Below, piece after piece: positions 853-63,087 of a stretch of 64,000 bases of DNA. Below the pieces are notes generated by a model. The model had not been told where the DNA came from and did not search any database. It was given only the letters and a program-made list of their open reading frames with translations. Numbering within the stretch: the first letter of the stretch is position 1; every line of letters starts with the position of its first letter. The DNA is from Eledone cirrhosa (Eukaryota): the NCBI GenBank assembly GCA_964016885.1, contig OZ024742.1, positions 333,312,001 to 333,376,000 of the forward strand, in the 5' to 3' direction. The position numbers were made by a program, and so were the translations under genes.

Positions 853-1340
853 TATATTTAAGTAACAGCCGTACTAAGTGTGGGAAATGAAATTTCGTTT
901 CATTTTTTCCGTATATCGTGTTCGGTGCACCCGGCCGATTAACCTACTCGATATGCAAATTGGGCTACTCAGCCGTTAATATGCATAAGGTAAGTATATA
1001 CGTTCAACAATCTGGCAGGAAGGTATACGTTGCTGACGATAGCAAATAAGCTTGAAACTAGTACACCGTTCCTGTGTCAGTGTTGAACAAACGATCAACG
1101 ATGGTTGCTAGACACTACGGCTTAATACGGGATGTTTGTTTACAAACACACCGAGCATTATAATAAATGTTCGGTGAATCCATACGTACATATATATATA
1201 TATATATATGTGCATGTATGTATATATATATACATACTTCTGAAAGTCTGTATACATATATGTATGTACGTGTACATATTTATATTTAAGTAACAGCCGT
1301 ACTAAGAGTGGGAAATGAAATTTCGTTTCATTTTTTCCGT
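853..1340 (+). repeat. 60-bp direct repeat (853-912 and 1281-1340) around a hammerhead-bearing segment
   Basis: TATATTTAAGTAACAGCCGTACTAAGWGTGGGAAATGAAATTTCGTTTCATTTTTTCCGT occurs twice. Confidence 0.9.
1027..1069 (+). ncRNA. Minimal type I hammerhead ribozyme motif
   Basis: ACGTTG-CTGACGA-T AGC aaataa GCT T-GAAA-CTAG-TA-CACCGT: stem I 5/6 bp, intact core, palindromic stem III, GUA cleavage triplet. Confidence 0.7.
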
Positions 1341-1735
1341 TTATATATATATATATATATATATATATATATATATATATATATATATATATATATATAT
1401 ATATATATATATATGTATATATATATATATATATTTATTTATATAGTAATAATAATAAATTTGAAGACTAACATATATATATATATATATATATATATAT
1501 ATATATATATATATATATATATATATATATATATTTATATATATATAGTAATAATAATAAATTTGAAGACTAACATCCAAAGAGGGCTCGATAAGGATAA
1601 ATATATATAAAATATATAAGAACCGTATATGTATGTATACATATATATATATATATATATATATATATATATATATATATATATATATATATATATATAT
1701 ATATATATATATATATATATATAATATATATATAA
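1341..1735. repeat. (TA)n array interrupted by two short 3'-terminal fragments of the Penelope-like element (1444-1472, 1546-1627)
   Basis: TAGTAATAATAATAAATTTGAAGACTAA...GAACCGTA is near-identical to 19636-19717. Confidence 0.9.
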
Positions 1736-1885
1736 CAAAGGAATTGTGGTAAGGAACCAGATGGACCATAACGCACCACAGTACTCAGTACTCAATTACT
1801 TAGGTAAATATATGTAAAAAATGGGGAGAAGAATACTGCAGGTTGCACATGGTTAACATGTTATAAAATGAGTCCCTCATCAGTG
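1735..1885 (-). mobile_element. Penelope-like 3' tail (family B) with a degenerate hammerhead
   Basis: GGAAWTGTGGTAAGGAAC..GGACCATAACGCACC..AGTACTCA is shared with 3028 and more loosely with 25253; minus strand has CTGATGA...CATG ttaac CATG but GAAA is lost. Confidence 0.5.
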
Positions 1886-3027
1886 ATTTGCCAACGATCA
1901 TAGATATTTCATTGCATTAAAAATCATATACCTCACGTTGGTGCAATAATAACTAAATTAAGTTATTAGGACAATTAAAACGCGTAAAGCGAGTGAGACA
2001 AGTAAACAACAAAGAGGAAAGCTAACCGTAGATAGGAATATATATATATATATATATATATATATATTTACATGCATATATACAAACGCCTCACACACAC
2101 ACACCTCTATATAGATATCTCAGGACAAACATAACACATAGCATGATTGAGCGAATCTAACTCTCTTCCTCATCGGCCATCTACTAGGCAAAGTAATTTC
2201 GAGCATGAGGAAAATATTGCTTAGTATTAAGTCGAGGCTGCACGATAATAACACGCCCTGACAGGTGGAAACATTTATTATAATGGAACAGAACATCATA
2301 GAGTTAGGAGGCAAAAAATAAAAATTAATGAAACAGCGTGTCTCGGCATTGCAGTCGATTATGACTTGGTGTTCACTTCCATGTTTTCGCTAAGTTTTCC
2401 AGGTGCACAAGCAGACACATTTTTACCACCACCCACTCTCTTTCTAAACAGACACACACATACACTCACTCACACACACACACACACACACACACACACA
2501 CACACACACACACACACACACACACACACACACACACACACACACACACAACACACACACACACATATATTTATATATATATATGTATATATAAAATGAA
2601 AAAAAACTAGATGTCCTACACGAGTGAAAGTATAAGGAAAAAAGATGAAATGGAAAATGCAAATGGAGTCTTTTTAAGAATATTTATTTGGTTCCTTCAC
2701 CGGTTTCGCAGTTCTTATGCTTTTCAAAACTAGAATTGAGATGGAGGGTTTATGGTTTTTCTCGCATCATATATATATTTGAGGATAAGTATTTAAACTT
2801 TATTTTATTCAGAGTTAAGGCTCTATTGATTTTTCCCTGGATTTCACAAAATTCTATGGATAAATCTATGTCTTGATTTTTTAAAATTGTGTTTGAATTA
2901 TTTTCCCACATCTTACGTTAATTATTTTCCATTTTGACGTTATGGTCACTTATATATTATGAAATACTGTTGGCTTCACGCTCACAATAATTTCTATACT
3001 TTCATTTATATATATATATATATATAT

Positions 3028-3178
3028 AACGAAGGAAATGTGGTAAGGAACAAGGTGGACCATAACGCACCAAAGTACTCAATACTTAGGGTAGTAGAAT
3101 GGGTAATAGGAACGAGTAGGAGCCCGACGGCTGAGCTCAAGCCGTTTCGACGGCTAATTCTGAGTCCTACTCGTTCCT
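3028..3178 (-). mobile_element. TA-flanked family B element with a terminal inversion (3108-3178) and a hammerhead 3' half
   Basis: AACGAGTAGGA...TCCTACTCGTT inverted repeat; minus strand reads GAAA-CGGC ttgagctca GCCG-TC. Confidence 0.65.
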
Positions 3179-5245
3179 ATATATATATATATATATATAT
3201 TTATATGTATATATATATATATATATATATATGTGTATATATATATGTATATATATGTATATATATATACATATATATGTATATGCATACATATAAATAT
3301 ATATATATATATACATACACACACATATGTGTGTGTGTGTGTGTGTGTGTGTGTGTGTGTGTGTACATGCGTTTAATATTTGTGTATAATTGTGGGTGAG
3401 TAAAAGGAAATATGTTTTTGTTATTTGCAAGTGTGTTTGTCCTCTAAAATCAGGTTATCGAATATACATTCAGAAAATAAAAACATATATAAAATACATA
3501 ATTAAAAGAAAATGAATGTACACCACGATAAAATAAGATACAAAATCCTACAATAATGCCTATAATAGAAATATAAACGATTCTTTTATTTTCTTTGTCC
3601 TCTATAATTTACATCGACACTGGAATTATAGGGCATACGAGTGTGGTATTTAATTATGTACGTCAAGACAGCTTATTTGATTTTACCAAGGATTGGTATG
3701 GAGATTTTCTCCGTTGTTTATGGGAGGATGTGATATTACTTGGTATAAGAGTTATGGTGTTCTACTCCCAGTCGTTACGTGGTGTGTTTCTTTCTCAGCG
3801 ATACATTGCGTCCTTCTGCAAGACATTTTATTTTACTTGGCACCATCTAGTTAATTTAACCTGAAACTATATGATCCAGACGACTGTCTGTGATATAAAA
3901 TTACGCTAATGTTACACGTATAGTTGAGATTTTCATCGACTAGCAAGATAATTCAACACGCTGCATGCTCCCCTGATCCAACAACGGGAACAGATGTACT
4001 TGGAACACAGGAAGACCCAAGAAAAACATGATTTGAAGAAAAAATAATTAACCTCTTAAAAATTTATATATTTTAACGTTCGTTCACCATACAGGATCTA
4101 ATCGGTGATATTAAAAAATATGTAAACCAAATGATGAAAGTTTCAACCATAATTTTGTATTTTACGTTGAGAAAAAGGCGTTTATCCTTCTCCTATTCTG
4201 AGGAATTTGAAAATAGGCGTACATATTTTCTCGTATTAAGGTGTGTGTATGGGCATTTGGGCGTGTATTTGTGTTCTATTGACATTTATTTATTTATATT
4301 TCTTTTGTGTAATTCCTTCTTTTGTAATGAATATGCAGAAATCTGGCAATACTTCTTAATTATTCTTCACTCGTCTGATGCACGTACACATACATAGCCC
4401 CATGTATAAACAGTTACAAACGGACGGAAATTTGTTGTATACACTCACTCACTCACACACACACACACCTACACACACGCACACACACGCACGCACTCAT
4501 ATATGTATATATAGATATAGTTATATATGTGTGTGTGGATGTGTATACATATACATAGCTATATATATATATATATATATATATATATATATATATATAT
4601 ATATATATATATATATATATATATAAATATATATATATATATATATATATATATATATATATATATATATATATATATGTATATATATATATATATATAT
4701 ATATATATATTCATATATATATATATATATATATATATATGTATATATATATATATATATATATATATATATATATATATTCATATATATATATATATAT
4801 ATATATATATATATATATATATATATATATATATATATATATATATATATATATATATAGACATATTATATGAATAATTATATGTTAATATGTTTATATG
4901 AGTGCGTGAGAGCGAACATCTATGTGCTAATATGCGTATATATGTATGTTTAATCATTTCTCCTTTGGTGTATGTTATTCGATTGCTATTTCTATGTCAA
5001 ACTAAACGTAGGTAGATTTATTGGTGTAAATATGTTCCTGGGTGGGTATTTATTCATGTCATTATATGACTGCGTGCATTCGTGTGTTCTATAATTGTGT
5101 GACAAAGATAGATTCCAGTGAACAAGAATATTCAGAGACCGGAGACGAAATAAATGGAAGGAAAAAATAAAGGAATATAAAATATAAAAGGAAAAATGCA
5201 AAAATTGAAATGTCATGGGACGATACCGTTTAAAATCCTATTCAG

Positions 5246-62404: not shown

Positions 62405-62873
62405 ATACAAATTAATATAAATTATTGTATGATAAACACTAATACAATTATATAAGTGTTTGTATTGCAAATGACCAAGTTAGCGGCACGAGTATAGGAC
62501 TGGCTAGGCGCTGAGAAACCATGTGCGTTCAACACTTCTCTATCAGTCCTCCTAAGTATTTTGAGGTGAAACATACCAATTTCTGGATACCTGCAGAAGA
62601 GCAGAGAAATGAAATTTTCGCTTATCGTTGCGAAATGGATTTGAGTTTTGAAATTTAAATTTCTCTGCGAAACGGATTTGGGTTTTGAAATTTAAATTTG
62701 TCCAGGTATCACGGCTATTGCCAATATGGGTTTGTTTTTATTGATTTATTATTTTAAATCGAGACAGGCAAACTGTATTAATTTTTCAATCTAGCTAACT
62801 TGGTCATTTGCAATACAAACACTTATATAATTGCATTAGTGTTTATCATATATTAATTTATATTAATTTGTAT
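62405..62873. repeat. 80-bp inverted repeat (62405-62484 and 62794-62873) with a ~33-bp tandem duplication in the spacer
   Basis: TTGCAAATGACCAAGTTAGC / GCTAACTTGGTCATTTGCAA; TGCGAAAYGGATTTGRGTTTTGAAATTTAAATTT occurs twice. Confidence 0.8.
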
Positions 62874-62888
62874 ATATATATATATATA

Positions 62889-62941
62889 TTTATTAAAATA
62901 ACAGATTAAAGTTTAAGCAAAGAATCGCTGCTTTCACCCTT
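62889..62941 (-). mobile_element. 53-bp 3' fragment of the Penelope-like element inside (TA)n
   Basis: Matches 19727-19779; truncated inside hammerhead stem II. Confidence 0.9.
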
Positions 62942-63049
62942 ATATATATATATATATATATATTTATACATATAAAGATATACATACATATACGTGGAAA
63001 AGTAAGAAATCGGTGAACAGACCGTTAATACATGTTTATTTAAAACAGC

Positions 63050-63087
63050 ACCTACGTACGTTTCGCCCAGTTGGGCTTCTCAAGGGC
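63050..63087 (-). ncRNA. Variant minimal hammerhead-like motif
   Basis: GCC-CTTGAGAA-GCCC aact GGGC-GAAA-CGTACG-TA-GGT; non-canonical 5' core. Confidence 0.5.

What the first reader, a model, noticed from the sequence alone, without database searches (positions are those of the whole stretch)
1027..63087. Several unrelated small (TA)n-embedded families each carry a minimal hammerhead ribozyme
Seen: complete type I folds (stem I-CTGANGA-stem II-GAAA-stem III-UH-stem I') at 1027(+), 26353(+), 46041(-) and 52284(-); variant cores at 19748(-), 25089(+) and 63050(-); isolated 3' halves near 3125-3148(-), 19415(+), 25410(+), 25972-25983(-), 36535(+) and 48152-48174(-). In most, the stem III region is or contains a short palindrome (CTAG, TATATA, CGTACG, CGATCG, CTTAAG, TGAGCTCA), though the families share no other sequence. 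Established: minimal hammerheads with palindromic loop III occur in Penelope-like element termini and retrozymes and are thought to cleave as dimers. Inference: this genome holds a diverse set of ribozyme-bearing non-autonomous retroelements or extreme 3' remnants mobilised by Penelope-like RT/GIY-YIG proteins. I cannot tell from the window whether these particular families are already described.
Basis: partly seen in the sequence, partly recalled or inferred. Interest (0 to 1): 0.85.

Follow-up and report, generated by a model that had tools for sequence, protein, structure and literature searches.

The report
Penelope retroelement hammerheads every ten kilobases
These are hammerhead ribozyme folds at the ends of Penelope-like retrotransposons and in small tandem 'retrozyme' repeats that insert into TA runs, a known pairing that reaches about one copy per 10 kb in this animal genome; they likely cut their own RNA in pairs or with protein help, which is untested here.

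Summary
Confirmed and explained. The 13 sites belong to nine repeat families. Six (B-G) are 3' ends (pseudo-LTRs) of Hydra-clade Penelope-like elements; one such element lies in the window as an inverted pair at 19638-25160. H probably is too, and I is unresolved. Family A (1027) is a 414-424-nt non-coding tandem retrozyme. Two 'isolated 3' halves' (19415, 25972) are complete variant hammerheads, and another hammerhead was missed (30929). A descriptor finds 5 hits in the window against 0.04 per shuffle, and 60 in an unbiased 600-kb sample against 0.7, or about 3x10^5 genome-wide. Related families swap C3-G8 for U3-A8 together with stem pairs. In 75 of 76 inverted pairs exactly one arm carries the 3' tail, and retrozyme A shows the same two-end, inverted, TA-targeted signature. 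Hammerheads in Hydra elements, U.U and U17 variants, and retrozymes are published. Cephalopod retrozymes, this density and roughly 60-115-nt stem II regions were not found in four searches. Cleavage and expression are untested. The scan noted a ribozyme-less Penelope-type tandem repeat in another genome, and nothing in this one.

The parts
845..1341 (+). Retrozyme A copy: about 1.2 units of a 414-424-nt non-coding tandem repeat, ending at the distal 3' site in (TA)n
   Evidence: start approximate
1027..1069 (+). Hammerhead A: canonical core, 6-bp stem I in the family, U.U at 10.1/11.1, palindromic stem III; predicted cut after 1063
3028..3178 (-). Family F short fold-back copy with tail; hammerhead 3' half at 3151-3123, cut off inside stem II
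   Evidence: F tied to a Hydra-type EN
19111..19617 (.). Family G inverted pair; complete U3-A8 hammerheads with ~105-nt stem II region at 19296-19433(+) and about 19292-19156(-); tail on the right arm
   Evidence: EN upstream in L217
19638..25160 (.). Hydra-clade Penelope-like element D as a tail-out inverted pair; RT and GIY-YIG ORF remains at 22494-20885(-) and 22482-24165(+)
   Evidence: full-length copies L222, L223
19749..19797 (-). Hammerhead D, left arm (tail arm): U4A core, U.U first pair, U at position 17
25090..25138 (+). Hammerhead D, right arm (short end)
25252..25453 (+). Family F (second subfamily) fold-back copy; hammerhead 3' half at 25407-25435
25943..26160 (-). Family H decayed fold-back copy; complete hammerhead with 8-nt core (A6a insertion) at 26016-25969
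26231..26415 (.). Family B fold-back pair; hammerheads at 26352-26401(+) and 26359-26310(-); tail on the left arm
   Evidence: B runs into a Hydra-type ORF start in L267
30929..30987 (+).
36479..36548 (+). Family I: 5' core half and a short stem, followed by GATA instead of GAAA; old repeat end, not resolved as a full hammerhead
46035..46218 (-). Family B fold-back pair; hammerhead at 46090-46043
48150..48193 (-). Family B remnant with damaged 5' half
52228..52766 (.). Family C inverted pair; hammerheads at 52336-52284(-) and 52564-52616(+, one core change); tail on the + arm
   Evidence: C follows a Hydra-type EN in L284
62900..62940 (-). Very short family D remnant (hammerhead 3' half)
62990..63150 (-). 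Family E 3' end; U3-A8 hammerhead at 63087-63048, N7 varies among copies
   Evidence: E ORF between two hammerheads in L220
63160..63600 (-). Family C 3' UTR fragment broken inside stem II, abutting the E copy
   Evidence: upper bound is the limit of what was printed

Best explanation
The motifs are type I hammerhead folds in the pseudo-LTRs of many Hydra-clade Penelope-like retrotransposon families and in a 420-nt tandem retrozyme that likely borrows their protein, and they are predicted to self-cleave as dimers or with protein help. Shown: the hammerhead lies shortly upstream of the element's proximal 3' end, copies are 5'-truncated to varying lengths, end in (TA)n at one of two fixed sites 60-170 nt apart, and often form tail-out inverted pairs with one end of each kind. 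Inferred: the RT/GIY-YIG protein nicks both strands in a TA run and primes one cDNA at each RNA start site; the two usually short cDNAs join head to head. Inferred for function: in pLTR-ORF-pLTR or tandem transcripts two palindromic stem III segments pair into one 6-8-bp helix and the RNA is cut to unit length. For retrozyme A the monomer would be circularised and reverse transcribed into more-than-unit-length copies.
For: Descriptor against shuffles. ORF links: D pLTR-ORF-pLTR with hammerheads 3256 nt apart (L223), E 3419 nt apart (L220), G after EN (L217); B into an ORF start, F and C after EN; K and a G sister family. Hydra marks DKT, CxCX5C, CxxC, CxH and (TA)n match PMC8557442 section 11. 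Two 3' ends per family and asymmetry in 75 of 76 inverted pairs, 14 of 14 in the unbiased sample. A: 17 of 19 same-strand spacings at 414-424 nt, circle fold z -7.6 and -6.1, two ends 62 nt apart (16 and 15 of 50 terminal units), asymmetric in the 4 readable of 10 inverted loci. Compensatory changes. In 6047 contigs of run X1 laid on A, listed variants inside the fold fall on N7, stem II/loop II and a stem I pair, none on invariant core bases. Perfect palindromes in 22 of 28 clusters with 4-, 6- or 8-nt stem III segments. Two RT start sites, both-strand priming and protein-assisted cleavage are shown for an anole element in PMC11167929.
Against: No cleavage or expression data for these sequences. 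Published activity is low: minimal hammerheads cut poorly even as dimers (PMC4209133), 1 of 9 Xenopus dimers cut, and the anole hammerhead is dispensable for insertion in vitro. D carries U4A and U17 in a young family; an F subfamily (L276, L186) appears to have C3.A8. Core bases were less variable than the rest in only 6 of 8 families, and that test is biased by the anchor. No homology was found between three retrozymes and nine Hydra elements beyond low-complexity matches; one apparent match was a neighbouring retrozyme. So the partner protein is inferred. H has no ORF link shown and I is unresolved.
Confidence: 0.85

Rival explanations
1. The folds are real hammerhead descendants but many no longer cut RNA. 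They ride along because they lie next to the RT start sites, or serve as a protein-binding fold.
For: D has U4A plus U17 in nearly identical young copies with near-intact ORFs; H has the A6a insertion, reported as low-activity (PMC3088659); PMC8557442 suggests hammerheads may simply parasitise these elements; hammerhead mutants do not affect insertion in vitro.
Against: The C3-G8 tertiary pair is swapped as a pair between related families in two separate groups, which is what catalysis needs; stem III palindromes are kept across clusters with unrelated stems.
Confidence: 0.2
2. Retrozyme A is moved by another (TA)n-targeting Penelope-like clade (Naiad or Neptune), or grows by local tandem duplication without a circular RNA.
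For: Naiads also target (TA)n and occur in Octopus (PMC8557442); no sequence homology between A and nine Hydra elements; the 2026 preprint proposes local amplification of a pLTR.
Against: A is dispersed over many contigs at 96-98% identity, with two fixed ends and inverted partners. Its U.U first pair is the usual Hydra form. Hydra-type ORF remains occur in 12 of 60 random stretches against one other GIY-YIG type found by a motif scan. Cephalopod Naiads are described as long inactive.
Confidence: 0.25
3. The short palindromes are MITE-like DNA transposons inserted in TA, and the hammerhead shape is a by-product of inverted repeats.
For: B, C, F, G and H copies in the window are near-perfect inverted repeats flanked by TA.
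Against: The arms have unequal ends, the fold-back point varies between copies, and long copies run into RT/GIY-YIG ORFs; hammerheads also occur in solo and tandem copies.
Confidence: 0.02

Closest known systems
Hydra clade of Penelope-like elements, including Hydra-1_Obim (Craig et al. 2021, PMC8557442)
   Same: C-terminal GIY-YIG, DKT, CxCX5C linker, CxxC and CxH, (TA)n target, inverted 5'-truncated partner, one-sided tail, hammerhead near the 3' end with U.U first pair and often U17 (their File S2).
   Different: They list one octopus family and call the clade small. Here at least ten EN lineages occur, one with 150 of 150 scored hits at 94% identity or more and 26 (my count) in open frames of 844 aa or more. 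Units are 3.3-5.0 kb, not under 3 kb; tails are 85-170 nt, not 30-40; RWR replaces RWK; U3-A8, U4A, A6a and long stem II forms are absent from their table.
Minimal hammerheads of metazoan Penelope-like elements (Cervera and de la Pena 2014, PMC4209133)
   Same: Type I fold, short palindromic stem III, dimer model, solo truncated copies, opposite-strand pairs 100-700 bp apart, U3-A8 variant.
   Different: They report a conserved G10.1-C11.1 pair and counts of thousands per genome; here U.U, C.A and A-U first pairs are common and the estimate is about 3x10^5 (different descriptor).
Non-LTR retrozymes of animals (Cervera and de la Pena 2020, PMC7229834; Li, Clavereau and Pollet 2026 preprint)
   Same: Short non-coding tandem units, one type I hammerhead per unit, G+C under 45%, self-paired circle fold, Penelope-like elements proposed as helper.
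   Different: Not reported from cephalopods in the searches made. These carry Penelope-type insertion marks (two fixed 3' ends, inverted partner, TA target), which the passages read do not describe; no pLTR homology found; circular RNA not shown.
Poseidon element of the green anole (Frangieh et al. 2024, PMC11167929)
   Same: Two RT start sites that define the tail, AT-rich target cut and extended on both strands, hammerhead upstream of the start sites.
   Different: Different clade; the strict one-tail-per-pair rule seen here is not tested there.

Membership tests
Type I hammerhead ribozyme | Core CUGANGA...GAAA...UH with stems I, II, III | tested here: met
   A, B, C and 30929 canonical; E, F, G U3-A8; H A6a; D U4A. 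Not met for I.
Type I hammerhead ribozyme | Compensatory change in stems and in the 3-8 pair | tested here: met
   G group: 4 of 13 pairs changed on both sides, 97.7% of cells paired; retrozyme group 7 of 12. Most rows were picked by the descriptor, so pairing is partly circular.
Type I hammerhead ribozyme | Match to an Rfam hammerhead model | tested here: not met
   None in 150 of 192 listed matches or in 68 of 68.
Type I hammerhead ribozyme | Self-cleavage at H17 | not testable with these tools
   Needs in vitro transcription or RNA end mapping.
Hydra-clade Penelope-like element | Single ORF with RT then C-terminal GIY-YIG | tested here: met
   709-aa frame in L222, 843-aa frame in L218; read by eye, Pfam gave no significant hit; 105 unnamed full-length relatives at 34-56%.
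Hydra-clade Penelope-like element | DKT, CxCX5C linker, CxxC and CxH around the EN end | tested here: met
   DKT in D, E and the L218 ORF; the cysteine motifs in D, E, the L218 ORF and C, partly in G and F, against PMC8557442 section 11.
Hydra-clade Penelope-like element | N-terminal RWK motif | tested here: inconclusive
   RWR in D, B and the L218 ORF: a conservative variant.
Hydra-clade Penelope-like element | Insertion into (TA)n | tested here: met
   47 of 60 unbiased hits within 150 nt of a TA run, against 21% of random positions.
Hydra-clade Penelope-like element | Hammerhead in the pseudo-LTR on both sides of the ORF | tested here: met
   L223 (D), L220 (E), L218 with L290.
Hydra-clade Penelope-like element | Generally under 3 kb (descriptive) | tested here: not met
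   Hammerhead-to-hammerhead 3.26, 3.42 and 4.95 kb, owing to long 3' UTRs.
Hydra-clade Penelope-like element | Placement in the Hydra clade of an RT tree with named references | not tested
   The tree holds only this genome's EN fragments; likeness to Hydra-1_Obim was judged by eye.
Non-LTR retrozyme (family A) | Short tandem units, each with a type I hammerhead | tested here: met
   17 of 19 spacings 414-424 nt, arrays up to 4 units seen.
Non-LTR retrozyme (family A) | Non-coding, G+C under 45%, highly self-paired | tested here: met
   Longest ATG frame 51-58 aa, G+C 37-38%, 69-72% paired, z -6 to -8; palindromic TA-rich parts add to the z-score.
Non-LTR retrozyme (family A) | Expressed as linear and circular monomer RNA | not testable with these tools
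   No RNA run was available to lay.
Naiad clade | N-terminal GIY-YIG, DKA motif, no canonical hammerhead | tested here: not met
   EN is C-terminal, motif is DKT, hammerheads present.

The most novel reading that the evidence does not exclude
This genome is the densest hammerhead repository yet described (about one per 10 kb, some 300,000 copies in dozens of families), produced by a still-active radiation of Hydra-clade elements. Their protein primes the two target strands at two different fixed sites of the RNA, and it also mobilises several families of circular-RNA retrozymes. That would identify the helper of animal retrozymes by insertion signature and show active hammerheads with stem II regions over 100 nt.
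Probability: 0.45. Interest if true: 0.65.

Novelty: new member of a known kind. Interest (0 to 1): 0.45.

Why it matters
The kind of system is published, so the finding is not a new class. Three things are useful. First, which enzyme moves animal retrozymes is still argued from co-occurrence and pLTR likeness; here retrozymes carry the Penelope-specific two-end, inverted, TA-targeted signature, and intact young Hydra ORFs lie in the same genome, so the pairing can be tested in vitro. Second, the near-absolute one-tail-per-inverted-pair rule is a sharp prediction for the unsolved Penelope insertion mechanism. Third, Rfam misses these motifs and short-spacer descriptors miss the long stem II forms, so hammerhead counts in such genomes may be far too low; dozens of natural variants form a ready set for activity assays.

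Tried and rejected
Rfam scans gave no hammerhead match, only microRNA models hitting TA runs. Pfam gave no significant family for the Penelope-like ORFs. The direct-repeat part of the repeat finder was swamped by microsatellites. No RNA holder was listed for family A; this says nothing on expression. Contigs of runs X4 and X5 held 2 and 3 pieces only, too few to use. Core-against-flank conservation across copies is biased because the anchor contains GAAA and rows under 80% were dropped; not used as support. I considered that G, F and H were hidden Naiad hammerheads; rejected for G and F, whose ORFs are Hydra-type. An apparent match of the 310-nt retrozyme to element D proved to be a neighbouring retrozyme. 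An intron acceptor at the 5' edge of stem I as the cause of short copies was considered and has no support. ViennaRNA cannot score the 2-nt loop III monomer, so only self-duplex energies were taken. A paper search for an octamer promoter in newt satellite 2 gave nothing usable. Dfam and Repbase could not be searched.
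Full report
Setting. The window is G000:C3:333312001-333376000 of a 3.0-Gb assembly, 35% G+C and full of TA microsatellites. I take it for an octopod: this rests on a SINE I recall and on by-eye likeness of the ORFs to Hydra-1_Obim. 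No call names the organism.

Observation. All listed motifs are present. I wrote a type I descriptor (core, stems I-III, UH) after seeing these motifs, so it is tuned post hoc. Strict form: 3 hits in the window, at most 0.03 per core class in 60 block-wise dinucleotide shuffles. Relaxed form (one mismatch per stem, stem II up to 200 nt): 5 hits (1033+, 19793-, 30934+, 46084-, 52331-) against 0.04 in 100 shuffles. I therefore read each family from other copies. Nine searches of the own genome scored the best 40 of 72 to 3065 candidates each, and I read 20-30 loci per family. The 13 sites fall into nine families, A-I.

Family folds. A, B and C have canonical cores and fully paired stem I in the majority of copies. 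A and B open stem II with U.U; C has a 10-bp stem II. D has A at position 4 and U at 17 in nearly all copies read. E reads U3...A8 with position 7 varying between C and G, as a free N7 should. G, called an isolated half, is complete: U3-A8 core, 7-bp stem I and about 105 nt between the core halves. H is complete with an 8-nt core. F copies in the window stop inside stem II, but longer copies show a U3-A8 core, a 5-bp stem I and a ~60-nt stem II region; two loci (L276, L186) appear to have C3.A8, which counts against. I has the 5' core half and a short stem but GATA where GAAA is expected, and no clear stem III; I leave it unresolved.

What they belong to. 19638-25160 is one element as a tail-out inverted pair, with RT and GIY-YIG remains 87-94% identical to a 709-aa frame in L222. 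The ORFs show DKT, a CxCX5C linker, CxxC and CxH, the marks of the Hydra clade (PMC8557442 section 11); RWK reads RWR. L223 has hammerhead-ORF-hammerhead for D, L220 for E, and L217 has the EN upstream of G. B runs through its tail into an ORF start (L267), F follows an EN end (L264), and C follows an EN (L284). H is linked only by a tail resembling that of another Hydra-type copy (L096). A tree of 50 EN fragments shows at least ten lineages; it has no named references and weak deep branches. One lineage not in the window (L218) gave 62,791 first-look candidates; all 150 scored are 94-100% identical, and by my count 26 lie in open frames of 844 aa or more. Such elements are therefore young and probably active.

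Family A is different. It forms arrays with 17 of 19 same-strand spacings at 414-424 nt, has no long ORF, and folds as a circle with z -7.6 and -6.1. It is dispersed at 96-98% identity. Its arrays end in (TA)n at two sites 62 nt apart (16 and 15 of 50 terminal units; 19 were classed mid, other or edge). Of 10 loci with inverted copies, 4 had both ends readable and each had one end of each kind. The window copy is about 1.2 units. Further tandem families of 310, 316 and 467 nt turned up. The 310-320-nt group shares a body but has rewritten hammerheads with C3-G8 or U3-A8. I found no homology between three retrozymes and nine Hydra elements.

Selection on the fold. G and its sister families (EN 62-65% identical) align over the whole region; C3-G8 becomes U3-A8 together with two stem I pairs (4 of 13 pairs changed on both sides, 97.7% of cells paired). 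In the retrozyme group 7 of 12 pairs change on both sides, with two rows misaligned by one column at the 3' side. Most rows were picked by the descriptor and are related, so these counts are not probabilities. Independent of the descriptor: of 19 variant rows listed from run X1 (6047 contigs laid on A) and two small runs, those inside the fold lie at 1030 and 1066 (one stem I pair), 1037 (N7), 1044 and 1047 (stem II, loop II), none on invariant core bases; X1 may be the source of the assembly. Among 39 clusters from 277 unique contexts (22 with two or more members; some singletons are diverged members), 22 of 28 with a 4-, 6- or 8-nt stem III segment are perfect palindromes, although the descriptor forces only the outer pair for 4 and 6 nt. 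Self-duplexes of five such segments give 6-8 bp. Core against other positions across copies was lower in 6 of 8 families, but biased.

Density. Sixty 10-kb stretches at even steps along 22 chromosome-scale contigs gave 60 hits in 28 stretches, against 0-3 (mean 0.7) in 10 shuffles. The bootstrap range is 40-82, or 2.0-4.1x10^5 for the assembly. This counts folds, not active ribozymes, and misses E, F and truncated copies. Published counts: about 9,000 in Xenopus tropicalis and 4,000 in coelacanth, over 6,000 in a coral, about 5,000 in a mussel, up to 120,000 retrozymes in the 28-Gb axolotl, 235 Rfam hits in giant squid. Descriptors differ, so the comparison is rough.

Insertion anatomy and mechanism. 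Each family has two 3' ends, for example 48 and 133 nt from GAAA in B, 45 and 130 in F, 73 and 195 in C. In 75 of 76 inverted pairs of B, C, D, E, F, G and K one arm is short and one carries the tail; the exception is L131, one F arm failed to align and was counted short, L024/L025 may be a duplication, and A and H were left out of this count because the reference tail was not resolved. Search queries bias some of these, but 14 of 14 pairs from the unbiased stretches agree. For an anole element, two RT start sites define the tail and both strands are nicked and extended (PMC11167929). I infer that each strand is primed at a different start site and the two cDNAs join head to head. Since the hammerhead lies just upstream of the proximal site, even the shortest insertions carry it or its 3' half. 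Fold-back points cluster in or next to the hammerhead in F and B; palindromes in the stems may supply the microhomology, which is conjecture. Cleavage as a dimer, or with the element's protein, and circularisation of A follow from published models and are not shown here.

Known and new. Hammerheads in Penelope-like pseudo-LTRs, solo truncated copies, opposite-strand pairs and U3-A8 are in PMC4209133 (parts 1-2 of 4 read; supplements not seen). Hydra elements with (TA)n targets and hammerheads, one from Octopus bimaculoides, with U.U first pairs and U17, are in PMC8557442 (passages, section 11, supplement searches and part 2 of 56). U10.1.U11.1, C3U/G8A and the A6a insertion are in PMC3088659 (passages); U4A was not in the passages I saw. 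Retrozymes: PMC7229834 (passages) and the 2026 preprint (parts 1-3 of 5; its supplements are closed and may bear on family lists). PMC11167929: parts 1-2 of 4. Two cephalopod repeat papers mention Penelope-like elements but not ribozymes (passages), and PMC13282606 lists 31 recently active Penelope-like families in O. vulgaris, which may include these. Four searches listed no paper on cephalopod retrozymes or on hammerhead density in octopus; Dfam and Repbase were not searchable. The scan's notes hold nothing for this genome and one related repeat elsewhere.

Verdict. Real, explained, and a new member of known kinds: Hydra-clade pseudo-LTR hammerheads plus non-LTR retrozymes. The interest lies in the scale, the one-tail rule and the retrozyme insertion signature, which make open questions testable. 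Interest 0.45.

Noticed in passing
window 53750-59126 (+): LINE of L1/Tx1 type (class recalled): 500-aa ORF1 with a zinc knuckle, an AP endonuclease part and a 952-aa frame with RVT_1 and zf-RVT.
   Followed up: partly
tails of families B, C, D, E, F, K (e.g. window 3028-3110, 26231-26310): A shared motif, roughly YYGAGYRCY, 50-140 nt 3' of the hammerhead GAAA in otherwise unrelated tails; a similar word ends coral Hydra-2_Amil. Candidate recognition site for the element's protein.
   Followed up: partly
retrozyme A (window about 955) and the 467-nt repeat (L247:674, 1141): An octamer ATGCAAAT lies in each unit, in a 78-nt segment the two share at 70%; absent from the 310-nt repeat. An snRNA-type promoter, recalled for newt satellite 2, is a lead only.
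   Followed up: partly
L225:3397-4775, L229:9166-10000, L247:1-1574, L014:1600-2700, L121, L018: Further tandem retrozyme families of 310, 467 and 316 nt, and a possible 522-nt one; the 310-nt units in L225 are identical to each other.
   Followed up: partly
L218:4097 to L290:2950 (G000:C1:204.007-204.012 Mb): A complete Hydra-type element with an intact 843-aa frame between two hammerheads; many near-identical intact copies genome-wide.
   Followed up: partly
L233, L242, L253, L258, L266, L272, L274, L275, L278, L281, L283: Family K and kin, not in the window, are the commonest hammerheads of the unbiased sample (about 20 of 60 hits).
   Followed up: partly
window 62900-63600 and 25160-26415: Ends of different families pile up in the same TA runs (D, E, C; D, F, H, B), as expected if each insertion leaves TA targets for the next.
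   Followed up: no
window 44084-44174 (-) and 59932-60506: A tRNA model hit (43 bits) and a 201-nt tandem repeat that I recall as an octopus SINE.
   Followed up: no
L257:2475: One GIY-YIG fragment of another Penelope-like type, without the Hydra linker.
   Followed up: no
window 14345 (+), 52434/52466: Core-like CUGANGA...GAAA strings that do not pass the descriptor; the 52434/52466 pair is the fold-back centre of the C element.
   Followed up: no
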